Source: a virus. Taken from it: a DNA stretch of 64,000 nucleotides. Positions 2,725 to 27,014 of the stretch are shown here, one piece after another; the first letter of the stretch is position 1, and every line of letters starts with the position of its first letter. Location of the stretch: positions 1 through 64,000 of the IMG/VR virus record IMGVR_UViG_3300023179_000026; one strand, given 5' to 3'. The notes beneath the pieces are model-generated. The model saw only the letters and a program-made list of their open reading frames with translations. It did not search any database and had not been told where the DNA came from. The position numbers were made by a program, and so were the translations under genes.

Positions 2725-4107
2725 TTAGAGCACGTTGTATCGGTCAACGTTCACAGTATCAAGCATAATGCTTAATGGTGTGAAATCTTTTGCTCCTAAG
2801 ATAGACTTCATGATAGCAGGTGAAAAACCACTTACCAATGCTGCACCACGTGTATCAAACTGCACAGGCACATTGTCATGTGAGTTTAAGTTCCAAAATA
2901 CGATCTTAGGTACATCATATCCTGCATCAGCATACTTCTTACCAATTGCTTTGTATGCGGTATCATCAGCACGTACTGCTTGATTAAACTGCATATCAGA
3001 TAGAATCAATAAAAACTTAGGCATATCTGCTTCAGGTACTTTATTGGTAACTGCTACATTTAGAATAGCATCAAATGCAGCCATGAGATTAGTTGACATT
3101 GACCAATCAGCACGATTCATTTGATTCATTTTGTCAATGATATTACCTTTAAGTATTTCAATCCTAGTGTTGGTAGAAAATGTTAAAAACATATCTTTAA
3201 AAGCACCACGATTTTTATCAGCACAATATAAACCTAATGCTAGTGCAACATTCAAGCAAGTTAAGTTTTTAGCTCCACCTACAGGACAGCCCATTGATCC
3301 ACTTACATCAACCATGGGCAACACATTAGCATCACTCATGTAGTTAGGTAATGCTTCCCACTGTGCAACACTTACATCAGTAATACCACTTAACATTGAT
3401 TTAATAACGTCATGTGGATAAATTGCTGATGCGTTAATTTTAGTGGTTCCGTTAACTAACCCATCACGATACTCTTGGTAACGATCATGGTCATTACGGT
3501 CAAATGCTTTCTTATAGATAGATGCAGCTATTGATGGTACATGCGAATAGTTAATCTTATCCCATTCTTTAGCGCACATATTAGTTTCAACAACCTTAGT
3601 TGCATTGACTAATAGCTTACGATATGTCTTAGGAGATAGACCCATGAAATTACGCAATTCTGCTGCAATTTTTCCTTTACGTGGCATCCATTTAGCACAC
3701 AGCCCATCATTGTTTAATAATGCTTCACGAATTGATGTATAAGCAAAATTTTTCATAGTGCGTGATGCAAAAATAAGCATATCATCCCATCGTCCAAAAG
3801 TAGGAATATGTGGAATGACACGTATTAGCATACTAGGATGATTAATTTCCATGTATAAAAGTAAGTCACGTATTAATTGACGTTCACCTGCGCCACCACG
3901 CACATCACGTGCCCATAGCAAAATTTTAGTTGCGATTTCAGGACTTTCTTGAAATGCTTTTTCAAACAATGCGGTAATATCTTTACCACGTGATGCTCCA
4001 ATTTTAAAGAACAAGTCTACAAGAGCATCACCTGTTCCGTTAAATGCAGCCATGCCATTAGTGGTAGTTGTTACTTCGGCTTGTTCTATTGCGGTTTTTA
4101 ATTCCAT
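2725..4107 (-). CDS. Ro60-like TROVE/vWA RNA-binding protein (DUF2828 type)
   Basis: N-terminal TxNG...DLFF...RDVRGGAGER, GRWDD, AKWMPR motifs; C-terminal vWA MIDAS (VDVSGSM, ILSDMQF, IVFWNL, LVSGFSP). Confidence 0.8.
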   Translation of the reverse strand: MELKTAIEQAEVTTTTNGMAAFNGTGDALVDLFFKIGASRGKDITALFEKAFQESPEIATKILLWARDVRGGAGERQLIRDLLLYMEINHPSMLIRVIPHIPTFGRWDDMLIFASRTMKNFAYTSIREALLNNDGLCAKWMPRKGKIAAELRNFMGLSPKTYRKLLVNATKVVETNMCAKEWDKINYSHVPSIAASIYKKAFDRNDHDRYQEYRDGLVNGTTKINASAIYPHDVIKSMLSGITDVSVAQWEALPNYMSDANVLPMVDVSGSMGCPVGGAKNLTCLNVALALGLYCADKNRGAFKDMFLTFSTNTRIEILKGNIIDKMNQMNRADWSMSTNLMAAFDAILNVAVTNKVPEADMPKFLLILSDMQFNQAVRADDTAYKAIGKKYADAGYDVPKIVFWNLNSHDNVPVQFDTRGAALVSGFSPAIMKSILGAKDFTPLSIMLDTVNVDRYNVL

Positions 4108-4120
4108 TTTAATTTTCCTT

Positions 4121-4180
4121 TACAGAATGCATTTTTTTTCAATTTTCAAGTTTGATTTTTTAAGTTGCTGTTAGCATTCT
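4121..4180 (-). ncRNA. Y-RNA-like element 1 (ACAGCAA family) in the leader of the Ro60-like gene
   Basis: AGAATGC-taACAGCAA...GCATTCT-GT terminal stem; internal loop CTTGAAA resembling a Ser(UGA) anticodon loop; abuts the RBS. Confidence 0.7.
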
Positions 4181-4186
4181 TAAACT

Positions 4187-4353
4187 AACAGGATGGTCGA
4201 TACGGTAATTTATTTTCTGCTTGCCCACTACCACAAGGGACTTTGTATCACAAGCCTATCATAGATCTTGGCTATGCCCAAAGTTGGCTAACCCCAACAG
4301 GCTGATCGATTACTCAATCTCTAGTCATGTAAAAAAGTTGCTGTATCCATCCT
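4187..4353 (-). ncRNA. Y-RNA-like element 2 (ACAGCAA family), multi-hairpin
   Basis: AGGATGG-atACAGCAA...CCATCCT-GT stem with compensatory changes relative to the other copies; internal hairpins GTTGG/CCAAC, TTGG/CCAA, AGCCT/AGGCT. Confidence 0.7.
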
Positions 4354-9149: not shown

Positions 9150-9731
9150 CTACATAATAGGGGCGTTGCCATTGCGAAAACCAACAGTACCCCCTTCATT
9201 GTTGATGCGTTTAATCACATCCTCAAATAAGATAGGGGCAAAGTCAGTTTGTTCTACGCAAACACAATGATATCTAACATCTACGATAGGGTTTGCTTTA
9301 TTATGTGTTGTAATCATGACACGGTTAGCATGCAAATGTCCATGTATGTTACAACCAAACCTAGCAATGCTATCTGCATGAATAGGCACGTGACTTAGAA
9401 TCATGCCATTCATCACATGGTATCCACGAATATCTCTAAAATGCTCTAAGTAATCTTGTAATTTAAAAATATCATGGTTACCACGTATAAGCACCTTATC
9501 GCCATTTAGTCTGCGTAGGGTATTTAAGCCTTTTCTGTTGATTGCAACATCGCCTAAAAAATAACACTTATCGTTTGGACGAACACGTTCGTTATGGCGT
9601 TTAACCATTTCTTCGTCCATTTCTTCCGCATTTTTGAATGGACGAAGGGGTGTACCGTCTGCTTTTTTAAAGACAGTACAAGTTTTTTCATGACCGAAAT
9701 GATGGTCAGAACAAAGAAAAACTGCTGGCAT
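9150..9731 (-). CDS. Calcineurin-like metallophosphoesterase
   Basis: SDHHFGH, LGD, RGNHD, LSH, HGHLH motifs. Confidence 0.85.
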   Translation of the reverse strand: MPAVFLCSDHHFGHEKTCTVFKKADGTPLRPFKNAEEMDEEMVKRHNERVRPNDKCYFLGDVAINRKGLNTLRRLNGDKVLIRGNHDIFKLQDYLEHFRDIRGYHVMNGMILSHVPIHADSIARFGCNIHGHLHANRVMITTHNKANPIVDVRYHCVCVEQTDFAPILFEDVIKRINNEGGTVGFRNGNAPIM

Positions 9732-11127: not shown

Positions 11128-11161
11128 AAGCCATTTGCTCTACCTACTGAGCTATACCCCC
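11087..11161 (-). tRNA. tRNA-Lys(TTT) copy A (weak T stem)
   Basis: Loop CTTTTAA, canonical D and T loops, T stem CGTGG/CCCTT mismatched. Confidence 0.75.
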
Positions 11162-11266
11162 ATTATCTTAGGTACCTTGTCACTGTCCATTTGGACTCTC
11201 CTTTAAAAAATCTGTATCAAACGTATCGGGATCATCAACTAACTCATAGTTTATACTTATATGTTA

Positions 11267-11511: not shown

Positions 11512-11586
11512 TGGGCAGAGGCACTAGGAGTCGAACCTAGAATAGCGGAATCAAAATCCGATGTGATACCATTTCACCATGCCCCA
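11512..11586 (-). tRNA. tRNA-Gln(TTG)
   Basis: Loop TTTTGAT, U1 mismatch; 3' end reads G-CCCA rather than G-CCA. Confidence 0.85.
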
Positions 11587-11591
11587 ACATA

Positions 11592-11653
11592 AACAGGATG
11601 CATTATACGGTTTAGATTAGCAGTCTAATGTAATAATTTGCTGTTAGCATCCT
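11592..11653 (-). ncRNA. Y-RNA-like element 3 (ACAGCAA family) with a Ser(GCU) anticodon-arm mimic
   Basis: AGGATGC-taACAGCAA...TTAGA-CTGCTAA-TCTAA...GCATCCT-GT. Confidence 0.75.
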
Positions 11654-11659
11654 TAAACT

Positions 11660-11735
11660 TGGTGGTCAGAGCAGTACTCGAAACTGCATTTTCTTTCTTA
11701 TGAAAAAAGCTCTCTTCCTCTTAAGATATCTGACC
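11660..11735 (-). tRNA. Atypical tRNA with CAT anticodon (Met or Ile2)
   Basis: All four stems pair, loop TTCATAA, CCA; non-canonical U53-A61 and U10. Confidence 0.7.
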
Positions 11736-11759: not shown

Positions 11760-12380
11760 TTAATGATGTTTAATTAATACAAAATTTGTAATACAAAATC
11801 TGCCATTTCCTTGATTTTTTAAATGTGTTGGTATTGATACTTTTGTTACTTCATGAGTTATTATAGAAGGGAAAATCACTAATCTATTGCTTAAACACTT
11901 AATTTTTTTGTTATGATTTAAAATTAAGTCTCCACCTTTGAAGGATTTAGGACTTTTAAATAACCAAAAAAGTGTTGTTATTACTGAGCTATCAGTATGG
12001 GGTTTATAAAATTCATTGTCTTCGTAATAGTTTAACATTGTACAATCAGTATTTGAATAAAGAAAGTAGTGGTAAAAATAATCAATTTTCAAAAGCTCTT
12101 CACATACTTCAGGGGAAAATAATTGTCTAGTTAATGTTAAAATTTTTGACTGTGATCTATTTTCATTATAATATAGATCTAAAAACAGACCTGTATTATT
12201 TCTCAACAAGTTTTCATTTTTATCTTTTGCAGAAAATGTAGGATTAGGCGGTTCTAGTAAATCATTGTTCAATAGAAACAATGATTCTTCTAATAATTCA
12301 TTATATTCAGCATTGTTAAAAAAGTTGTCTATAATTATTGCTTTTAAACTGTGAACTTTAAAATGTTTTATTTTTCTCAT
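11760..12380 (-). CDS. 2OG-Fe(II) oxygenase (prolyl-hydroxylase-like)
   Basis: YKPHTD...GGDL...FPS..THEV..GRF. Confidence 0.85.
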   Translation of the reverse strand: MRKIKHFKVHSLKAIIIDNFFNNAEYNELLEESLFLLNNDLLEPPNPTFSAKDKNENLLRNNTGLFLDLYYNENRSQSKILTLTRQLFSPEVCEELLKIDYFYHYFLYSNTDCTMLNYYEDNEFYKPHTDSSVITTLFWLFKSPKSFKGGDLILNHNKKIKCLSNRLVIFPSIITHEVTKVSIPTHLKNQGNGRFCITNFVLIKHH

Positions 12381-12470: not shown

Positions 12471-13043
12471 TTAAAATGCCCAACTTACAAAAACAAACCT
12501 ATTACCCTTTGTAATTTTATTTACATTATGGGGATATAAAAAAACACTTGGAAATATTATAATGCTTCCTGCAGATAATTTGAGAACTTTATCTCTAATT
12601 ACTAGTTCTCCACCTTCATAATTATCATTTAACACACCAATTAAACTAAGTACAGGAATTCCTTTAATTTGTCCATCAAAAATTGAATGTATGTGATCAA
12701 CGTGTGGTTCCATTTTGGAATTAGTTGTATATTTAGTAAATCTTGGCGAATAAAATCCCTGAAACCTACTATAATATAGTTTTAAACCGTAAGTATCTTC
12801 ATTTAAATACCTAGTAAAACACTCATCAATTATTTGTTCTAATTCTTGTGACTCATTTATTTTATTGAAATATACTAATGGTTCAAACTCATGTTGAAAC
12901 GTACTATGATTATATAAATCATGAACCTTATTAAATTGGTGTCGTTCCCAAGTGCAATTTTTAAGAGATGATAAAATTTTTTTACAAAAAGGTTTTTCTA
13001 ATTTTTTTTCGTAAACCTTAATATAGTCATTTAAATTGTTCAT
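12471..13043 (-). CDS. 2OG-Fe(II) oxygenase
   Basis: EPHVD...YEGGEL...FPS.FLYPHNV..GNR. Confidence 0.85.
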   Translation of the reverse strand: MNNLNDYIKVYEKKLEKPFCKKILSSLKNCTWERHQFNKVHDLYNHSTFQHEFEPLVYFNKINESQELEQIIDECFTRYLNEDTYGLKLYYSRFQGFYSPRFTKYTTNSKMEPHVDHIHSIFDGQIKGIPVLSLIGVLNDNYEGGELVIRDKVLKLSAGSIIIFPSVFLYPHNVNKITKGNRFVFVSWAF

Positions 13044-14431: not shown

Positions 14432-14505
14432 TGGTAGGGGCACAGAGAATCAAACTCTGATTTATTGGTTAAAAGCCAATTACTTTATCATTAAGTTATA
14501 CCCCC
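14432..14505 (-). tRNA. tRNA-Lys(TTT) copy B (degenerate D and T loops)
   Basis: All stems pair, loop CTTTTAA; D loop lacks GG, T loop TTTGATT. Confidence 0.7.
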
Positions 14506-14523
14506 ATTATCTTTCGTACCTTG

Positions 14524-14952
14524 TCACTGTCCATTTGGACTCTCCTTTAAAAAACTTGTATCAAATGTATCAGGATCATCAACCAACTGATTTTCACTGA
14601 CTTCAACCCATTTACCATCAATCTTTACTTCTACTTTAACTTTTTTCAATTCACGTTCCAACGCACGTTCAGCTTCTACTAATTCACCTGTGCGTTTCAT
14701 ATATTCTAATTTAATCCACTTTTTAAATTTATCACTATTAGCCATTTTTTCAAATGCATCTTTACGATTGTCTAGTTGGCTACGACTAGATTCGCTATAA
14801 CCATGTGCACCACTTGCACGATGTGTACAATGCACTGCTGAACTTGTTTTATTACGTTTTTGTCCACCTGCTCCTGTACCTTTAGTATATGACCATTCAC
14901 AATCTTTAGCAGTAATACTAAAGAACGGTTCTTCTTTTTTGTTAACTTTCAT
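14524..14952 (-). CDS. RF-1 domain peptidyl-tRNA hydrolase (ArfB/PrfH-like)
   Basis: GTGAGGQKRNKTSSAV...RSQLDNR (GGQ motif). Confidence 0.85.
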   Translation of the reverse strand: MKVNKKEEPFFSITAKDCEWSYTKGTGAGGQKRNKTSSAVHCTHRASGAHGYSESSRSQLDNRKDAFEKMANSDKFKKWIKLEYMKRTGELVEAERALERELKKVKVEVKIDGKWVEVSENQLVDDPDTFDTSFLKESPNGQ

Positions 14953-15199: not shown

Positions 15200-15832
15200 T
15201 TACTTAAACATTGGACCTTCTACCCAAGCAACAATGCTTTTTCTTGAACCTGCCGTAATTGGTGTAACTTGATGTATCATCCAACTAGGAAAGCATATTA
15301 AAGTTCCACGTTTTTGTTCTACTGTAATTTTATCCCTTGAAACGGATGAAAAAATATTAAATTCACCACCTTCATACTCGCTTTTATCTTGTAAAAATAA
15401 TACTGTACTTAATTTTCTTATAAGGTGTGAGTTATGAATAGGACCCATAATTAAATCCATATGATCATCATATTTTGCGCCTATAGTATCATACAAAGTG
15501 TATTGAAATAAACTGAAACCGAAGAGATCAAAACGATAAAAATCGTTATTAAGTCTTGTTACTCTAGCAAAATATTCATCAAAAAACCAATTGATAGCAG
15601 GGTCGATGTTAATCCACGCTACTTTTGAATCACGGACTTCTTTACTAAAACTTTTTATTTTTTTTTTATTTTTTTGATTGGTGTCTCTTTGATTTATAAC
15701 AGAGGCATCTTCTGCAATTAATTTATCGCCGTATGATTCAATTGTTTTTAACTGCTCTTCGCTAAACGCATTATGCAAATATACATAAGGATATATAATT
15801 TTTCCAACAGTTTCTACATTTGTAGTTAACAT
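15200..15832 (-). CDS. PKHD-type 2OG-Fe(II) hydroxylase
   Basis: YDDHMD...RKLS...YEGGEF...FPSWMIHQVTP..GSRKS. Confidence 0.88.
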   Translation of the reverse strand: MLTTNVETVGKIIYPYVYLHNAFSEEQLKTIESYGDKLIAEDASVINQRDTNQKNKKKIKSFSKEVRDSKVAWINIDPAINWFFDEYFARVTRLNNDFYRFDLFGFSLFQYTLYDTIGAKYDDHMDLIMGPIHNSHLIRKLSTVLFLQDKSEYEGGEFNIFSSVSRDKITVEQKRGTLICFPSWMIHQVTPITAGSRKSIVAWVEGPMFK

Positions 15833-16126: not shown

Positions 16127-16213
16127 TGGTGGGTGCTCTCCGATTCGAACAGAGAAGGCCAAAGACAAGAGATTTACAGTCTCCCCCCGATACCGTTACG
16201 GGACTAAACACCC
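16127..16213 (-). tRNA. tRNA-Tyr(GTA)
   Basis: Loop CTGTAAA, variable arm, CCA. Confidence 0.9.
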
Positions 16214-16315
16214 AAAATTTACATCTTTTTTAAAGATCTTTTAAACTGACTAACTTGCGTACAAATCAATCAGTATATATATTACATCAAACTAAAATTA
16301 TTTTCAAGCATTTTT

Positions 16316-16395: not shown

Positions 16396-16469
16396 TGGCG
16401 TTCCATAGCGGATTTGAACCGCTGTTCACGGATAGAAAGTCCGTTTTCGTAACCCCTAGAAGAATGAAC
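16396..16469 (-). tRNA. tRNA-Glu(TTC), irregular acceptor and D arm
   Basis: Loop CTTTCTA, perfect anticodon and T arms; apparent 1-nt deletion in the acceptor 5' strand. Confidence 0.75.
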
Positions 16470-19624: not shown

Positions 19625-19718
19625 TGGTGGAAAGTGTGGGATTCGAACCCACGAAGCAGCTTTTTGACCACTTGCCTTCTTAGCAGGAAGGTACCTTCAG
19701 CCTCTCGGTCAACTTTCC
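19625..19718 (-). tRNA. tRNA-Ser(GCT)
   Basis: Loop CTGCTAA, long variable arm, CCA. Confidence 0.9.
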
Positions 19719-19896: not shown

Positions 19897-20514
19897 CTAT
19901 TTCGTAATAAAATTATCAACGATTGCAGTATTAAAACTTATACTAATACGATCTTTATTTGTATTATTAGTTAGTACATAATGGTCTAAATAGCCGGGAA
20001 AAATAACTAATTTGCCAGTCTTTGGAGGTATTTTCCATTCAATAGAATTAAATTCATTGTATTCGCTGATAATTTCCCCATTGCTATATAAATTGGCATA
20101 ACAATAGGTTTGTTCAATCTTAGAATTAGGATTGTTAAACACAATATCACCTGTATCAAAATCAGCTTCTACGTAGTACACTCCCGACAAATAAGATAAA
20201 CCATGATTATGGCGAAGATTATAATGATGTTTTTGATTTATATTTACCCAAACTGCAGTTATTTCTTGCGAAATATTTTGGCGCAGTTTTAAAATAAGAT
20301 TAGTGTTATTAACTCTAGCCATAATATGACTTAATAGGTCATCAAGCATTGGATGGTTACTTGGCACTAAGTTGCTCTGCCAACCACCACAATTAGTCAA
20401 TACTCTACCTGAGTCTGCTTTTTTTAATTCATAACAAAAATTTTTTAATTTTTGATTGTCAATTTCAAGATTATCAACTAATATAAAATTAGAAAAAATT
20501 GGGAAGGTATACAT
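19897..20514 (-). CDS. Putative 2OG-Fe(II) oxygenase (TIGR02466-like)
   Basis: WVNIN...HNH..SYLSGVYY..GDIVF...FPGYLDHYV...RISISFN. Confidence 0.85.
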   Translation of the reverse strand: MYTFPIFSNFILVDNLEIDNQKLKNFCYELKKADSGRVLTNCGGWQSNLVPSNHPMLDDLLSHIMARVNNTNLILKLRQNISQEITAVWVNINQKHHYNLRHNHGLSYLSGVYYVEADFDTGDIVFNNPNSKIEQTYCYANLYSNGEIISEYNEFNSIEWKIPPKTGKLVIFPGYLDHYVLTNNTNKDRISISFNTAIVDNFITK

Positions 20515-20528
20515 ATTTATTTCCTATA

Positions 20529-20623
20529 TGGTGGAGAGCGGAGGAGTCGAACCCCATCCCCTTCTTCAGCGGAACCCAGTTTTCAAGGCTGGTCGGCGCA
20601 CCAACGCACCTGCATCACTCTCC
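20529..20623 (-). tRNA. tRNA-Ser(TGA), unusual D arm
   Basis: Loop CTTGAAA, long variable arm, CCA. Confidence 0.82.
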
Positions 20624-20630
20624 GTAAACT

Positions 20631-21314: not shown

Positions 21315-21431
21315 AAACAGGATGCGTTATCGTTGCTCTACCATTAAGCTACATACCTTTTACAAGATATGGTAGTATTCGAACCTACAACCAACGGCTC
21401 CCGAAGCATCATAATTTGCTGTTAGCATCCT
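21315..21431 (-). ncRNA. Y-RNA-like element 4 (ACAGCAA family): YrlA-type circularly permuted tRNA mimic
   Basis: AGGATGC..ACAGCAA stem, then T arm (GTAGG-TTCGAAT-ACTAC), closed 7-bp acceptor (CATATCT-tgtaa-AGGTATG), then D arm (TA-GCTT-AATGGTA-GAGC). Confidence 0.85.
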
Positions 21432-22098: not shown

Positions 22099-22953
22099 CT
22101 ACTTTAAACCCATTTCTTTCCTAATTTGGGTTGCACTGATACTAGTGATTGTTTCATCAAATGTTTCTTCACCACTTGTATAGCCTACACCACGACCCCA
22201 ACCAATATGTACAATGTTTGGTACTAACATAATTTCATATTGCCCTTGATACAATGGATCCAAATCACGCTTAATATAACCTTTAACTTGTTCTACATTG
22301 AAAGGATTACTTCCTTGCCATCCTTGCACATCACGTATTTGTATAATGACTTGTCCTGTGCGTTTAAGTAATCGTTCAAAAAGAGCACGATGACCTGCAT
22401 GCCACGGTTGCCAACGTCCTAGCATCTGCACCGTTTCTTTACGCCAATCGAAAGTTGGTCTACGTTGTTCTCTAATAATTCGTTCACCAACATATGCTAC
22501 CCAAAATTCAGCATTTTTTTCTGTAATACGAAAATCATATATTTCAGGTGGGACAAATGCTTTGTTAGTATCTTCATAACGACTATTGTCAATAGTATCC
22601 ATCCATATTGTCCAATCTGCTTTAAAATTATTGCGCATTTCAACTAGAGGAGCGACAAAATCACATATGACATAATCACTACCACTGTTTATAGCAAAAT
22701 CTGCCATACGTATAGATTGGCGTATACGACCTTCTGTGCTAAAGTCCCAATCATTGTATCGTTTTCTAACATCATCAGCATTAAACCATTTAACGGATGG
22801 TTTCCATTCTTTAGGAACAATTTCGTATCTGCTTAAAATGCTAATTGGCATTTCAGTTATTGAACGTGGCTGTTGTAGATAGTTTTTTAATCGTTCTGCA
22901 AAATATGTTTTACCTGCTCCTGGCAAGCCCATGATAAGAATTTTAGTAGTCAT
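22099..22953 (-). CDS. Adenylylsulfate kinase-like / cytidylyltransferase-like fusion
   Basis: GLPGAGKT P-loop, NADDVR..DFS.EGR; C-terminal GRWQPWHAGH (HxGH). Confidence 0.8.
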   Translation of the reverse strand: MTTKILIMGLPGAGKTYFAERLKNYLQQPRSITEMPISILSRYEIVPKEWKPSVKWFNADDVRKRYNDWDFSTEGRIRQSIRMADFAINSGSDYVICDFVAPLVEMRNNFKADWTIWMDTIDNSRYEDTNKAFVPPEIYDFRITEKNAEFWVAYVGERIIREQRRPTFDWRKETVQMLGRWQPWHAGHRALFERLLKRTGQVIIQIRDVQGWQGSNPFNVEQVKGYIKRDLDPLYQGQYEIMLVPNIVHIGWGRGVGYTSGEETFDETITSISATQIRKEMGLK

Positions 22954-25310: not shown

Positions 25311-26543
25311 ATGCTTTTTAAACACGAACCCAATTATTACCTTAAGACTGATATAGATCGTTACTTTGAAAGTAAGGGTGTACATGTTATATATAATGGT
25401 TTAATGGCTAATGAATTATTGATGAGAGTTTATGTAAATGATTTTCATCATATGGTTGAACGTGCAGACCAATATTGGTCACACTTTGACAAAAACACTA
25501 TATATCAAACAATGTATTCTGTTAAAAATAGAAAAAAATTAACAGGTTTTGAAAAAGTATCAAAGCTAGATGCCGCAAAAAGGTTTGAGTTAAGACAAAT
25601 TGTAAAAAGAGGAATATTTACGCCTTGTAAAATACAAAATCATAAAGAAAATGTTTGGGTAAAAAACTGCAGCTATAAAGACACACTTAAAAATTCAGTA
25701 AAATCATTAGACAATCCATTCTTGTATTTGAGCGGTGGTTCAGATAGTGAACTTTTAGCCTATGCATTTCTTGATGCAGGAGTAAAATTTACACCTGTTA
25801 TCTTTAAATTAATTTATAACAACGAATGTATCAACCATGATGAAATAAAATATGCTTTTGATTTTTGTTCACAACAAAAACTTATACCTGTTACAAGAAT
25901 AATTAACATCAATGAATTATGGAACTCAAATCATTTTACTCAATTAGCCGTTGATTGTAATTTGTTTAGTCCGCAATTATTAACTCATGCTCATATGGTT
26001 GAGATAATAAACTATGAATTTCCATACCGTTCTCACATATTTGGTGGTGAAGTGAAATATTCAACAAGACATGTTTACTATGATGACGATGAATATCAAA
26101 ATATCATACATTTAGATAAAGCAGGATTTTTATTAGCTAATCAAGATTTTGGATTGTTGTGGGCATCCTATGGTGGTCCAGGCGGTGGCTCTAATTTTTG
26201 TGTTAACTATTGGAACACATATACAACTTATGCAAACTCAAGATATCAAGGAGCATCAGGTGCTTTTTCTTGGACAGATGGCGGTCCAATGTCAGGAACA
26301 TGGTTTGTTGGGGTAAGCAGTGTATCAGCAGTTATTCAAACTAATTCACTATGTATATATGGGGCATCGGGTTATACAGCAGTGGGTGGTGGTTATTCTT
26401 TTATATGCAGTGCAGTGATTATTGACGGGAACGCCCCAGGCCTTACCTCCCAATGGAATTTTGGCATAAACGTTTATGGCAGTAACAGTCCAGGCATCGT
26501 TGGTGGACTTTCTGCACAATTTGCAGCAGGAAATACTTTTTAA
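25311..26543 (+). CDS. PP-loop ATP-dependent ligase, paralog 2
   Basis: LSGGSDSE, FGGE; colinear with paralog 1 up to HLDK, then divergent; start revised. Confidence 0.65.
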   Translation: MLFKHEPNYYLKTDIDRYFESKGVHVIYNGLMANELLMRVYVNDFHHMVERADQYWSHFDKNTIYQTMYSVKNRKKLTGFEKVSKLDAAKRFELRQIVKRGIFTPCKIQNHKENVWVKNCSYKDTLKNSVKSLDNPFLYLSGGSDSELLAYAFLDAGVKFTPVIFKLIYNNECINHDEIKYAFDFCSQQKLIPVTRIININELWNSNHFTQLAVDCNLFSPQLLTHAHMVEIINYEFPYRSHIFGGEVKYSTRHVYYDDDEYQNIIHLDKAGFLLANQDFGLLWASYGGPGGGSNFCVNYWNTYTTYANSRYQGASGAFSWTDGGPMSGTWFVGVSSVSAVIQTNSLCIYGASGYTAVGGGYSFICSAVIIDGNAPGLTSQWNFGINVYGSNSPGIVGGLSAQFAAGNTF

Positions 26544-26546
26544 AAT

Positions 26547-27014
26547 ATGGAAACAAGTAACTTTTCACATCAATTTATTACAGGTTTTGAAGAAACCGAT
26601 CTTTTACTTTCAACAAAAGAGCTTGAGTTGTATCTAAAACTTTTAAATGATGTAAAAACTAGAGCAGAAAATACTTTTAATAACAGAACTAACCATCAAT
26701 ATACTACCCCACCTTTACCTACATTAGAAGCTTTGCAAACACTAGCAGCTACTACCGTTAAAGAGTATTACAAAAAAGGTAACCTTTTAAATTATAATAA
26801 ACTTGTTGATGATATTGTTGCTGAAGCTAACAGAAAAATAGATAACCAAGAATATTGCATGGTAGGCACAGAAGAATGGACATATAGAGAAAATTATTTT
26901 AAAGCATGGGAAGATTTTAATAATTCGTGGCCTGATGCAACAGAAATTGAAATTAGAGAACAAGAAAAATCACTTTACCAACACTTACTTGACAACGATG
27001 ATTTATCTAATTGA
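26547..27014 (+). CDS. Hypothetical protein
   Basis: 155-aa ORF in the same operon. Confidence 0.6.
   Translation: METSNFSHQFITGFEETDLLLSTKELELYLKLLNDVKTRAENTFNNRTNHQYTTPPLPTLEALQTLAATTVKEYYKKGNLLNYNKLVDDIVAEANRKIDNQEYCMVGTEEWTYRENYFKAWEDFNNSWPDATEIEIREQEKSLYQHLLDNDDLSN

What the first reader, a model, noticed from the sequence alone, without database searches (positions are those of the whole stretch)
11592..11653. Minimal RNA: ACAGCAA handle plus a perfect tRNA-Ser(GCU) anticodon arm
Inside the conserved stem is UUAGA-CUGCUAA-UCUAA: a 5-bp stem and a canonical 7-nt loop (C32 U33, GCU, A37 A38), identical to the loop of the phage tRNA-Ser(GCT) at 19625. With element 1 (Ser UGA loop), two of four family members present serine anticodons; a weak CUAGAGA in element 2 may be a third. 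Inference: decoys or sensors for a tRNA-Ser-specific anticodon nuclease or modification enzyme.
Basis: partly seen in the sequence, partly recalled or inferred. Interest (0 to 1): 0.75.

Follow-up and report, generated by a model that had tools for sequence, protein, structure and literature searches.

The report
Anticodon-arm mimic on phage Y-like RNA
This 61-base phage RNA gene joins a conserved "handle", probably the docking site of a Ro60-like ring protein encoded nearby, to a faithful copy of a tRNA anticodon arm; the serine anticodon it shows is only one of at least 14 that related phages display on the same scaffold.

Summary
On the minus strand at 11653-11593, between tRNA-Met and tRNA-Gln, lies a 7-bp terminal stem, UAACAGCAA, a second stem, the hairpin UUAGA-CUGCUAA-UCUAA, and a GU tail. 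Its loop equals that of the phage's own tRNA-Ser(GCU).

It is one of four handle RNAs in this 137-kb uncultured phage contig. Two of them sit directly upstream of a DUF2828/DUF7788 gene whose predicted fold matches Ro60. The same RNA-gene pairing recurs in IMG/VR contigs and in very different cultured phages. No Rfam family reaches threshold.

Anticodon-loop mimicry is real and general. Of 107 distinct short members, 45 carry a 5-bp stem with a C-U-NNN-A-A loop, against 0.8 expected from shuffled interiors. Both stems covary.

Serine specificity is not supported. Fourteen triplets occur (UUU, UGU and GCU are commonest). One and the same stem carries five of them, and positions 34-35 change far faster than the rest.

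Most likely this is a Y-RNA-like partner of the Ro60-like protein that displays an anticodon arm to anticodon-directed enzymes. The decoy or bait role is untested.

This scan has found the family before on other DNA (at least 151 genomes). I reached the reading independently before looking those notes up.

The parts
11593..11653 (-). Handle RNA 'C' (the finding): 61 nt, lying between tRNA-Met and tRNA-Gln
   Evidence: Sequence read. Structural scan. Homologues.
11647..11653 (-). P1 5' strand, AGGAUGC. It pairs with 11595-11601 (GCAUCCU).
   Evidence: 100% paired in 20 homologues, and 4 of 7 pairs show compensatory changes. More than 10 different P1 sequences occur across phages.
11638..11646 (-). 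Handle motif UAACAGCAA, an unpaired 5' bulge between P1 and P2
   Evidence: CAGCAA is invariant in alignment A2 apart from one divergent copy. The per-site difference rate among close pairs is 0.006.
11630..11637 (-). P2 5' strand, AUUAUUAC. It pairs with 11602-11608 (GUAUAAU), with one bulged U.
   Evidence: MFE structure. The terminal AC/GU pairs are kept in 17-18 of 20 homologues.
11612..11628 (-). Anticodon-arm mimic UUAGA-CUGCUAA-UCUAA. The loop is 11617-11623 and the GCU triplet is 11619-11621.
   Evidence: 4 of 5 stem pairs covary. The loop frame C32 U33 / U36 A37 A38 is conserved. The loop is identical to that of tRNA-Ser(GCU).
11593..11601 (-). P1 3' strand GCAUCCU plus the GU tail (together ...CUGU)
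   Evidence: The last four bases read CUGU in 146 of 202 distinct elements. A G after P1 was a requirement of that scan, so its constancy is not an independent result.
4122..4180 (-). Handle RNA 'B': the copy in the 5' leader of the DUF2828 gene, with loop CUUGAAA. It ends 2-3 nt before the Shine-Dalgarno sequence AAGGA.
   Evidence: The same arrangement is seen upstream of 30 of 33 complete homologues. Rfam RF01414 scores 26.9 bits.
4188..4353 (-). Handle RNA 'A': 166 nt with a long structured interior
   Evidence: Elements of 150-189 nt are found in 18 distinct sequences.
21317..21431 (-). Handle RNA 'D': the interior is a circularly permuted tRNA elbow (T arm, acceptor hairpin, D arm)
   Evidence: Rfam YrlA (RF02553) scores 32.2 bits, E = 1e-5, below its gathering score of 69.
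2725..4107 (-). Gene for the Ro60-like protein (DUF2828 + DUF7788, 460 aa), the presumed partner of the handle
   Evidence: Pfam E = 5e-33 and 4e-51. phrog_850 'RNA-binding protein'. AF2 model with pLDDT 78. The top 13 Foldseek PDB hits are all Ro60/TROVE, E from 4e-8 to 1e-4.
11660..11735 (-). tRNA-Met(CAU), 6 nt upstream of the element
   Evidence: ARAGORN and Rfam.
11512..11587 (-). tRNA-Gln(UUG), 5 nt downstream of the element
   Evidence: ARAGORN and Rfam.
19625..19718 (-). tRNA-Ser(GCU), with anticodon arm CCUUC-CUGCUAA-GAAGG
20527..20625 (-). Non-canonical tRNA-Ser/Sec-like gene with loop CUUGAAA (UGA triplet)
   Evidence: Sequence read. Best Rfam match is tRNA-Sec at 34.7 bits, below its threshold of 47. 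ARAGORN does not call it.

Best explanation
The element is a small RNA gene in the phage's tRNA operon. It is probably released by the tRNA-processing enzymes acting on the flanking tRNAs (inferred).

It belongs to a widespread family of phage RNAs with two modules:
1. A constant handle. This is a 7-bp helix joining the two ends, a 5' bulge N-N-N-CAGCAA, and a G after the helix. I infer that it is the binding site of the phage's Ro60-like ring protein (DUF2828/DUF7788), much as the Y-RNA stem binds Ro60.
2. A variable cargo made of tRNA parts.

In this copy the cargo is an anticodon arm: a 5-bp stem and the loop C32-U33-G-C-U-A37-A38. The frame of that loop is fixed across the family, while positions 34-35 change quickly from phage to phage. 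The arm therefore presents a chosen 'anticodon' to something that reads anticodon loops.

I think the most likely readers are host anticodon nucleases or other anticodon-directed enzymes. The RNA-protein particle would then act as bait, decoy or tripwire in the phage-host conflict over tRNA.

The copy in the leader of the protein's own mRNA ends at the ribosome-binding site, which suggests autoregulation by the same binding event.

What is shown: the anatomy, the conservation, the covariation, the gene linkage and the predicted Ro60-like fold. What is inferred: binding, processing and the decoy role. The serine identity of this copy is incidental to the family.
For: Family and structure:
- The handle occurs 4 times in the window against 0.27 expected.
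It gave 88 distinct elements with the matching closing strand 42-141 nt downstream.
- A relaxed structural scan gave 247 hits, against 16 in reversed-sequence controls.
- Covariation on 20 sequences: 96.8% of cells paired against 82.6% shuffled, 8 pairs with changes on both sides, and 0 of 500 shuffles as high on four of the five measures (57 of 500 for further pair types).

Anticodon mimicry:
- 45 of 107 distinct short members have a strict CU-NNN-AA loop on a 5-bp stem, against 0.77 in shuffles.
- 14 triplets occur on 18 distinct stems.
- Among 18 close pairs the difference rate per site is 0.22 at position 34 and 0.50 at position 35. It is 0 at positions 32, 33, 36, 37 and 38, and 0.006 in the handle.
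- The arm is not a recent copy of the phage's tRNA-Ser, because the stems differ.

Protein link:
- The DUF2828/DUF7788 gene lies directly downstream of copies A and B.
- All 13 best PDB fold matches are Ro60.
- 38 IMG/VR loci fetched through the RNA motif also hold a homologue.
- 30 of 33 complete homologues have a handle RNA in the 110 nt before the start codon, with many different P1 sequences.
- All 3 cultured phages found through the RNA encode the protein.
- 5 of 6 distant cultured phages chosen through the protein have 2-4 handle RNAs beside the gene: Felix O1-like, Campylobacter CP81, mycobacteriophage Rumpelstiltskin, Staphylococcus SEP9 and Listeria LP-Mix_6.2.

Expression hint: in Listeria phage CKA15 the homologue matches Rsr by HHpred, and abundant unannotated RNAs map within 2 kb upstream of it (PMC12282133).
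Against: - No binding, processing or expression data exist for this phage.
- Pfam TROVE itself is not matched. The fold match has a TM-score of only about 0.5, on a model with pLDDT 78.
- The Rsr-binding motif GNCGAAN0-1G of bacterial Y RNAs (PMC4201824) is absent.
- The thermodynamic signal of this single copy is weak (z = -1.1).
- No RtcB or Rnl2-type ligase is present in the held 137 kb, which is about 39% of the genome. A repair connection is therefore not visible here.
- About half of the short family members carry other hairpins, such as GG-containing loops, so anticodon display is one cargo type and not the purpose of the family.
- The counts come from related phages and from a motif-biased sample.
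- Aeromonas phiAS5 and Ralstonia RSP15 have no copy directly beside the gene. In RSP15 the copy lies 3.8 kb away.
Confidence: 0.6

Rival explanations
1. One reading: the RNAs are decoys or sensors specifically for a tRNA-Ser-directed anticodon nuclease or modification enzyme.
For: - Two of the four copies in this phage show Ser triplets, GCU and UGA. Their loops equal those of the phage's own tRNA-Ser(GCU) and of its Ser/Sec-like tRNA.
- The loop CUGCUAA recurs on three different stems and in very distant phages: this phage, Vibrio PhiImVa-1 and Campylobacter CP81.
- Ser triplets are the commonest amino-acid class, 15 of 52.
Against: - 14 different triplets occur. UUU is the commonest single one.
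- The same stem carries five triplets.
- A related contig has UCU on the identical hairpin, and the closest related contig has GAU at a comparable position.
- 15 of 52 is not clearly above the 6 of 32 expected for NN[U/A] triplets.
- The third alleged Ser loop (CUAGAGA) is not real.
- Copies in the leaders of other phages show UGU, GAA, GCA and GUA.
Confidence: 0.07
2. The arm is a substrate or sponge for tRNA A37-modifying enzymes (t6A37 for anticodons ending in U36, i6A37 for A36-A37-A38), not a target of nucleases.
For: - Position 36 is almost always U (38 of 52) or A (10 of 52), and A37-A38 are nearly invariant. G and C are tolerated at positions 34-35, in 35-37% of loops.
- From established knowledge, U36-A37 and A36-A37-A38 are the determinants of t6A and i6A, and MiaA accepts isolated anticodon stem-loops.
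- YrlA-type Y RNAs are substrates of tRNA-modifying enzymes (PMC4201824).
Against: - AU-rich composition may explain part of the U/A bias at position 36.
- No modification genes are seen to be linked to the family.
- Rapid change at positions 34-35 is not needed for this role.
Confidence: 0.12
3. The handle is bound by another factor, either a host protein or a different phage protein, as Dictyostelium Class I RNAs are bound by an RRM protein. On this reading the linkage to DUF2828 reflects co-regulation only.
For: - The handle has the same signature as dictyostelid Class I RNAs: a 5' G, a short end-to-end stem, the motif CCUUACAGCAA and a CUGU 3' end (PMC7919456).
- The one protein shown to bind those RNAs directly is the RRM protein CIBP/Rnp1A.
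- No binding data exist for DUF2828.
Against: - The copy in the leader abuts the Shine-Dalgarno sequence of the DUF2828 gene in 30 of 33 homologues. That is the classic pattern of an RNA-binding protein acting on its own mRNA.
- DUF2828 was the gene most often shared, in 44 loci, of which 38 are the IMG/VR loci fetched through the RNA motif. The next most frequent, a phosphoesterase, was in 22.
- The predicted fold is that of an RNA-binding ring.
Confidence: 0.1
4. The element is a cis-acting spacer or processing hairpin, or a decayed tRNA fragment, in the tRNA operon, with no function of its own in trans.
For: - It sits 5-6 nt from tRNAs on both sides.
- It is made of tRNA-like parts.
- Its folding energy is not unusual.
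Against: - The handle is conserved almost to the base across unrelated phage families, while both helices covary.
- Copies also occur outside tRNA arrays, directly before or after the DUF2828 gene.
- The arm's stem is not that of any tRNA in the window.
- The loop frame is under strong constraint.
Confidence: 0.06

Closest known systems
Ro60/Rsr with Y RNAs, especially bacterial and mycobacteriophage YrlA/YrlB (Rfam RF02553; Chen et al. 2014, PMC4201824)
   Same: - Small RNAs are encoded beside, and on the same strand as, a ring-shaped protein built from a HEAT-repeat domain plus a vWA domain.
- The design is modular: a terminal protein-binding helix plus an effector module that mimics tRNA.
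- Copy D has the YrlA topology (T arm, acceptor hairpin, D arm) and scores 32 bits on RF02553.
- There are several RNAs per protein.
   Different: - The protein is Pfam DUF2828/DUF7788, not TROVE. It has no sequence match to PDB Ro60 and is similar only in predicted fold.
- The handle is P1 plus NNNCAGCAA plus G. It lacks the GNCGAAN0-1G / GGUCCGA motif.
- The cargo here is an isolated anticodon arm, the one tRNA part that YrlA replaces with its Ro-binding stem.
- Many copies lie inside tRNA operons and in the leader of the protein's mRNA.
Class I RNAs of dictyostelid social amoebae (Rfam RF01414; Kjellin et al. 2021, PMC7919456)
   Same: - Length of about 60 nt, with a conserved 5' G in a short stem that joins the two ends.
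- The motif comes directly after the 5' strand: CCUUACAGCAA in Dictyostelium, GCUAACAGCAA here. That is 9 of 11 identical, including all five positions the paper calls near-invariant.
- The interior is variable.
- The 3' end is CUGU, whose C pairs with the 5' G.
- RF01414 is the best Rfam hit for copies B (26.9 bits) and C (16.9 bits).
   Different: - These RNAs are eukaryotic, transcribed from DUSE promoters, and reported as unique to Dictyostelia.
- The known direct binder is an RRM protein.
- No tRNA-like cargo has been described for them.
- The scores here are below the gathering threshold of 41.5.
- Whether the resemblance reflects common descent, transfer or convergence is unknown.
Listeria phage CKA15 (P100-like): putative Rsr-like CKA15_055 with abundant unannotated RNAs (PMC12282133)
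   Same: - This is the same protein family. The related Listeria phage LP-Mix_6.2 carries a DUF2828 homologue (32% identical to the window's protein) with three handle RNAs directly upstream of it.
- The paper's authors speculate that nearby abundant RNAs are Y RNAs.
   Different: - The paper defines no RNA family, handle or cargo.
- Its most abundant region (26,236-26,727) maps onto a ROOL-like RNA, not onto the handle RNAs.
Phage and host tRNA anticodon arms targeted by anticodon nucleases (PrrC, RloC, colicins D and E5, PARIS AriB; recalled from established knowledge, not tested here)
   Same: The element presents a canonical 5-bp stem and a 7-nt loop with U33 and A37. The commonest triplets in the family are UUU (Lys) and UCU (Arg), which are the targets of PrrC/AriB and of colicin D.
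   Different: It has no tRNA body, acceptor end or elbow, so it cannot be charged or used in decoding. No nuclease has been tested against it.

Membership tests
YrlA-type Y RNA (Rfam RF02553) | Reaches the Rfam gathering score (69 bits) | tested here: not met
   There is no hit on the finding's element. The sister copy D scores 32.2 bits.
YrlA-type Y RNA (Rfam RF02553) | Rsr-binding motif GNCGAAN0-1G near the 5' end (PMC4201824) | tested here: not met
   The 5' region reads AGGAUGCUAACAGCAA, which contains no such motif.
YrlA-type Y RNA (Rfam RF02553) | Encoded within a few kb of a Ro60 (TROVE) orthologue, on the same strand | tested here: inconclusive
   Pfam TROVE is absent from the record. 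However, a protein with a Ro60-like predicted fold (DUF2828) lies on the same strand, 7.5 kb from this copy and directly next to copies A and B.
YrlA-type Y RNA (Rfam RF02553) | tRNA-like domain with T arm, D arm and acceptor-like stem | tested here: not met
   This copy holds only an anticodon-arm mimic. Copy D does have the domain.
Dictyostelid Class I RNA (Rfam RF01414) | 5' G in a short stem that joins the 5' and 3' ends | tested here: met
   AGGAUGC pairs with GCAUCCU, and the helix covaries.
Dictyostelid Class I RNA (Rfam RF01414) | 11-nt motif CCUUACAGCAA next to the 5' strand, with near-invariant positions 3, 6, 9, 10 and 11 | tested here: met
   GCUAACAGCAA is identical at 9 of 11 positions, including all five near-invariant ones.
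Dictyostelid Class I RNA (Rfam RF01414) | CUGU at the 3' end, with its C paired to the 5' G | tested here: met
   The element ends ...GCAUCCUGU (the feature is described in PMC7919456).
Dictyostelid Class I RNA (Rfam RF01414) | Rfam gathering score (41.5 bits); DUSE promoter; dictyostelid genome | tested here: not met
   The score is 16.9 bits for this copy and 26.9 bits for copy B. The context is a phage tRNA operon, so I do not file the element as a member.
tRNA (Rfam RF00005) | Cloverleaf with acceptor, D, anticodon and T arms | tested here: not met
   ARAGORN and Rfam call no tRNA at 11588-11659. Only an anticodon arm is present.
Handle RNAs linked to DUF2828 (undescribed family; seen repeatedly in this scan) | 7-bp terminal helix, then N-N-N-CAGCAA on the 5' side and a G after the 3' strand | tested here: met
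Handle RNAs linked to DUF2828 (undescribed family; seen repeatedly in this scan) | The genome encodes a DUF2828/DUF7788 protein, with copies beside the gene | tested here: met
Handle RNAs linked to DUF2828 (undescribed family; seen repeatedly in this scan) | The RNA is expressed and bound by the protein | not testable with these tools
   The only lead is indirect: the published RNA-seq of Listeria phage CKA15 (PMC12282133).

The most novel reading that the evidence does not exclude
Phages from many families use a second, undescribed kind of Ro/Y-RNA particle: a DUF2828 ring plus handle RNAs. Its cargo is a programmable anticodon display, with a fixed loop frame and fast-changing positions 34-35, tuned in an arms race to the anticodon nucleases of each host.

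The same handle in Dictyostelium Class I RNAs would mean that those unexplained RNAs are the eukaryotic counterpart of this particle. The protein of unknown function that was pulled down with a Class I RNA (DDB_G0281243) would then be a candidate Ro-like partner.
Probability: 0.2. Interest if true: 0.9.

Novelty: new variant of a known kind. Interest (0 to 1): 0.7.

Why it matters
Ro60/Y-RNA particles are known from animals, some bacteria and a few phages, and their purpose is still debated. Here a different protein family with the same predicted ring fold travels with its own RNA handle. Homologues of the protein are present in at least 709 cultured phage records, including Felix O1-like, P100/A511-like, Campylobacter and mycobacterial phages that are used or studied as biocontrol agents.

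The RNAs carry separate tRNA parts. The anticodon-arm cargo points to the current phage-host conflict over tRNA cleavage. Its fixed frame and variable triplet give a concrete, testable hypothesis: swap the triplet and ask which host nuclease or enzyme is engaged.

The near-identity of the handle to Dictyostelium Class I RNAs could also make that 20-year-old unexplained RNA class experimentally approachable.

For annotation, these elements are currently missed, or are miscalled as pseudo-tRNAs or suppressor tRNAs.

Tried and rejected
- **Degenerate or armless tRNA.** Rejected: it has no T or D arm and neither ARAGORN nor Rfam calls it.
- **ACAG in the handle pairs with the CUGU tail (a pseudoknot).** Rejected: mycobacteriophage copies keep ACAGCAA but end ...CCAGU, and Felix O1-like copies end ...CUGG. 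The tail therefore does not stay complementary to ACAG.
- **Canonical Ro60 in the genome.** Pfam TROVE is not found. There is no PDB sequence match for the DUF2828 protein; only the predicted fold matches.
- **RNA-repair partners in this genome.** No RtcB or Rnl2-type ligase lies in the held 137 kb. The record is only about 39% complete, so this says little.
- **Close DNA relatives among cultured phages.** None for the region. Distant-mode hits were mostly tRNAs.
- **Literature.** The searches for the motif strings returned nothing on this RNA (none of the 20 listed hits). DUF2828 appears in 5 unrelated papers. I could not obtain Avesson et al. 2011.
- **Does Dictyostelium DDB_G0281243 belong to DUF2828?** No tool here gives eukaryotic protein identities, so this was left untested.
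- **Protein atlas.** It returned only viral DUF2828 clusters.
- **The positional relative in the closest contig.** It has a different neighbouring tRNA and the triplet GAU, so strict orthology could not be established.
- **A covariance model of the family.** I did not build one. The regex-based structural scans with reversed-sequence controls were sufficient for the questions asked.
Full report
**What is there**

The window is the first 64 kb of a 136,878-bp uncultured virus record, which CheckV estimates to be 39% complete. It carries at least 25 tRNA genes on the minus strand.

The finding lies in the 72-nt gap between tRNA-Met (11735-11660) and tRNA-Gln (11587-11512). Read on the minus strand it is: AGGAUGC - UAACAGCAA - AUUAUUAC - A - UUAGA CUGCUAA UCUAA - ACC - GUAUAAU - GCAUCCU - GU.

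- The two ends form a perfect 7-bp helix, P1.
- A second helix, P2, stacks on P1 through a continuous 3' strand. This leaves UAACAGCAA as a 9-nt 5' bulge.
- The tip is a 5-bp stem with a 7-nt loop.

The loop CUGCUAA is identical to the loop of the phage's tRNA-Ser(GCU), although the stems differ.

On its own the fold is not thermodynamically unusual, z = -1.1. The bare heptamer ACAGCAA is not enriched either. The 17-nt handle, however, occurs four times against 0.27 expected, and nowhere else in the 137-kb record.

**A family, not a one-off**

In 88 distinct elements the matching closing strand follows 42-141 nt downstream. About 26 hits lie in coding sequence without a closing strand and are chance matches.

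I then ran a looser structural scan: any 7-bp P1, then NNN-CAGCA[A/U], then the closing strand followed by G. It found 247 elements (202 distinct) in the fetched loci, against 16 in reversed-sequence controls. P1 sequences were of many kinds.

Sizes fall into three classes:
- 50-69 nt: 115 elements.
- 100-129 nt: 62 elements. The long elements I read, like copy D, hold a circularly permuted tRNA elbow inside.
- 150-189 nt: 18 elements.

The window has one element of the middle class, one of the long class and two short ones.

On an alignment of 20 diverse members with an anticodon arm, 96.8% of cells are paired, against 82.6% after shuffling. Four of 7 P1 pairs and 4 of 5 arm pairs show compensatory changes. 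Sliding the partners by one to three columns drops pairing to about 30%.

No Rfam family reaches threshold on any copy. The best sub-threshold hits are YrlA for copy D (32 bits) and Dictyostelium Class I RNA for copies B and C (27 and 17 bits).

**The partner gene**

Copies A and B lie immediately upstream of a 460-aa ORF (2725-4107, minus strand).
- It matches Pfam DUF2828 and DUF7788, and PHROG 850 'RNA-binding protein'.
- It has no sequence match in the PDB.
- An AlphaFold model built on 22 homologues (pLDDT 78, pTM 0.72) has Ro60 as all 13 of its best Foldseek matches, over its full length. These include Thermus phage phiLo Ro60, Xenopus and human Ro60, and Deinococcus Rsr, with E from 4e-8 to 1e-4 and TM-scores of about 0.5. 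After these come vWA domains.

The linkage holds from both directions:
- From the RNA side, 38 of the IMG/VR loci fetched through the RNA motif contain a homologue with 43-95% identity.
- In 30 of 33 complete homologues the 110 nt before the start codon hold a short handle RNA that ends CUG(U/A) just before the Shine-Dalgarno sequence. P1 is as different as GAAUGU/ACAUUC, GGUUAA/UUAACC, GUUUAG/CUAAAC and GUUAAC/GUUAAC.
- All three cultured phages found through the RNA encode the protein: Ralstonia RSP15, Vibrio PhiImVa-1 and Synechococcus B3.
- From the protein side, 709 cultured phage records have a homologue.
- I sampled six distant ones. Five have two to four handle RNAs within a few hundred bases of the gene, on the same strand: Felix O1-like AYO145A, Campylobacter CP81, mycobacteriophage Rumpelstiltskin, Staphylococcus SEP9 and Listeria LP-Mix_6.2. 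Aeromonas phiAS5 has none within 3 kb.
- Among the neighbouring genes of the window, DUF2828 is by far the one most often shared with the other loci: 44 loci, against 22 for a phosphoesterase.

**The question of the finding: is this an anticodon arm, and is it about serine?**

I tabulated the hairpins of all 107 distinct short members.
- 104 have a hairpin of at least 4 of 5 pairs with a 7-nt loop.
- 60 of these have U at loop position 2 and a purine at position 6.
- 45 have the strict frame C-U-N-N-N-A-A.
- After shuffling each interior 200 times, the means are 12.3 (maximum 21) and 0.77 (maximum 4).
- Among the 52 seven-nucleotide loops from constrained folds, the consensus is C32 (40), U33 (48), N34, N35, U36 (38; A in 10), A37 (46), A38 (43).

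That criterion is clearly not met, so the mimicry is real.

The displayed triplet, however, is not fixed.
- 52 strict elements show UUU 11, UGU 8, GCU 8, UCU 6, UGA 5, GCA 3, GAU 2, GGA 2, CAU 2, and UAU, GUA, AUU, UAA and UUC once each.
- The very stem of this element, UUAGA/UCUAA, carries GAU, GCU, UCU, UGU and UUU in different contigs.
- A related contig has the same hairpin with UCU. The closest related contig (DUF2828 protein 95% identical) has GAU in a comparable copy.
- I compared 18 pairs of closely related elements that differ at 1-6 positions. The per-site difference rate is 0.22 at position 34 and 0.50 at position 35. It is zero at positions 32, 33, 36, 37 and 38, 0.006 in the handle, and 0.056 in the helices.

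This sample is small and not independent. Still, the pattern of an invariant frame around two fast-changing bases is what one expects of a specificity-determining site.

Serine triplets are frequent (15 of 52). CUGCUAA recurs on three different stems, including in a Vibrio N4-like phage and in Campylobacter CP81. But this is not clearly more than the 6 of 32 expected for NN[U/A] triplets.

The arm is not a recent copy of the phage's tRNA-Ser. No tRNA in the window has its stem.

**How it most likely works**

Three things are shown:
- The architecture is modular: a constant handle and a variable tRNA-part cargo.
- There is tight linkage to a gene for a Ro60-like protein.
- A handle copy abuts that gene's ribosome-binding site.

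By analogy with Ro60 and Y RNAs, I infer that the handle is the protein's binding site. I infer that the leader copy gives feedback control of the protein's translation. I also infer that the copies in the tRNA operon are cut out by the tRNA-processing machinery to form small RNPs.

The cargo of this copy presents a canonical anticodon loop without any tRNA body. It cannot decode, but it can be recognised by enzymes that read anticodon loops. The fast turnover of positions 34-35 fits engagement of host factors that differ from host to host. Anticodon nucleases are the obvious candidates, and UUU and UCU, the targets of well-known ones, are among the commonest triplets. That step is inference only.

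An alternative that the data do not exclude concerns the U/A36-A37-A38 frame. This frame is the determinant of t6A and i6A modification, so the arm could be a substrate or sponge for those enzymes.

I found no RtcB or Rnl2-type ligase in the held part of this genome. The Listeria phage does have RtcB 1.3 kb downstream of its DUF2828 gene.

**Comparison with what is known**

The system works like a Ro60/Y-RNA particle, and copy D has the YrlA topology. Membership fails on the defining features, though:
- There is no TROVE match.
- There is no GNCGAAN0-1G motif.
- The Rfam scores are below threshold.

The handle matches the published definition of dictyostelid Class I RNAs point for point:
- a 5' G;
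- a short end-to-end stem;
- the motif CCUUACAGCAA, with its five near-invariant positions;
- a variable interior;
- a CUGU end whose C pairs with the 5' G;
- a length of about 60 nt (PMC7919456).

Those RNAs are reported as unique to Dictyostelia. A pull-down with one of them recovered an RRM protein, two metabolic enzymes and DDB_G0281243, a protein of unknown function (bioRxiv 10.1101/2020.04.05.026054). I could not test whether DDB_G0281243 is a DUF2828 protein.

The only published hint of the phage system that I found is in the multi-omics paper on Listeria phage CKA15. There CKA15_055 matches Rsr by HHpred and is detected in virions, and the authors suggest that abundant nearby RNAs might be Y RNAs. 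They do not define the RNAs (PMC12282133).

**Earlier notes of this scan**

After reaching this reading I consulted the scan's notebook. The family has been reported there many times, in at least 151 genomes. The reports include the link to the Ro60-like protein, the resemblance to Class I RNAs, and anticodon-arm cargo whose triplet changes from phage to phage. My results agree with those notes.

- a shuffle-controlled loop census;
- the per-site rate comparison that singles out positions 34-35;
- the constraint at position 36;
- the recurrence of CUGCUAA in CP81 and PhiImVa-1;
- the CKA15 paper;
- the DDB_G0281243 lead.

**Verdict**

- The anticodon-arm reading is supported.
- Serine specificity is not supported.
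- The decoy or sensor function is plausible but untested.

The element is a member of an apparently unpublished variant of the Ro/Y-RNA theme.

Noticed in passing
L140:1444-1995 (Listeria phage LP-Mix_6.2); the equivalent in Listeria phage CKA15 (OR088597.1) is about 26195-26746: A ROOL-like RNA lies about 1 kb upstream of the Listeria phage DUF2828 gene. It scores 87.4 bits on Rfam RF03087, below the gathering score of 99.1. By coordinate mapping it coincides with the most highly transcribed region of CKA15 (26,236-26,727), which the published paper first annotated as three small ORFs and then suspected to be non-coding.
   Followed up: partly
window 16127-16214 (-), 16399-16469 (-), 20527-20625 (-): ARAGORN misses three tRNA-like genes.
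- A Tyr(GUA)-like gene with a long variable arm. Rfam also misses it.
- A tRNA that scores 36 bits on Rfam, with loop CUUUCUA (UUC triplet, U at position 37).
- A Ser(UGA)-type gene with a 6-bp D stem and a 4-nt D loop. Its best Rfam match is tRNA-Sec (34.7 bits, below threshold).
   Followed up: partly
window 11760-12380, 12471-13043, 15200-15832, 19897-20514 (all -): Four 2OG-Fe(II) oxygenase genes are interspersed among the tRNA genes (three match Pfam PF13640, one PF13759). Their substrates are unknown. Their position inside the tRNA operon raises the question of RNA or tRNA modification.
   Followed up: no
window 9150-9731 (-) and 22099-22953 (-): A calcineurin-like phosphoesterase (phrog_547; weak match to Pfam Metallophos; PDB 1xm7 at E = 2e-5) has homologues in 22 of the 131 loci fetched around handle RNAs. 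That makes it the second most frequently shared neighbouring gene after DUF2828. A P-loop kinase (phrog_10255) heads the tRNA block. Together they could be RNA end-healing enzymes; this is untested.
   Followed up: partly
L136:4880-4935 (E. coli phage AYO145A), L138:4442-4493 (mycobacteriophage Rumpelstiltskin), and many IMG/VR copies such as L009:2503-2560: There is a second recurrent cargo type in short handle RNAs: a 4-5-bp hairpin with a GG-containing loop (UGCGGAU, UUUUGGU, UUGGUAU). The loop is the same in a coliphage and a mycobacteriophage. It may mimic a tRNA D loop.
   Followed up: no
L124:1735-1849 (Vibrio phage PhiImVa-1) and L125:1461-1570 (Synechococcus phage B3): Features annotated as 'tRNA-Sup-TTA' and 'tRNA-Pseudo-GCA' are tRNA bodies that carry a closed stem plus UAACAGCAA / UAACUGCAA at the position of the anticodon or variable arm. 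They are handle-tagged whole tRNA bodies, not suppressor tRNAs or pseudogenes.
   Followed up: partly
window 11150-11247 and 14494-14591: A 98-nt direct repeat (91% identical) covers the 5' part of each of the two tRNA-Lys(UUU) genes and about 85 nt of the sequence upstream of them. This indicates a segmental duplication within the tRNA block.
   Followed up: no
PMC12282133 (Listeria phage CKA15), Table 1: The DUF2828-type protein CKA15_055 was detected in purified virions with 57% sequence coverage, although its gene lies outside the structural module. This raises the possibility that the Ro60-like protein is packaged.
   Followed up: no
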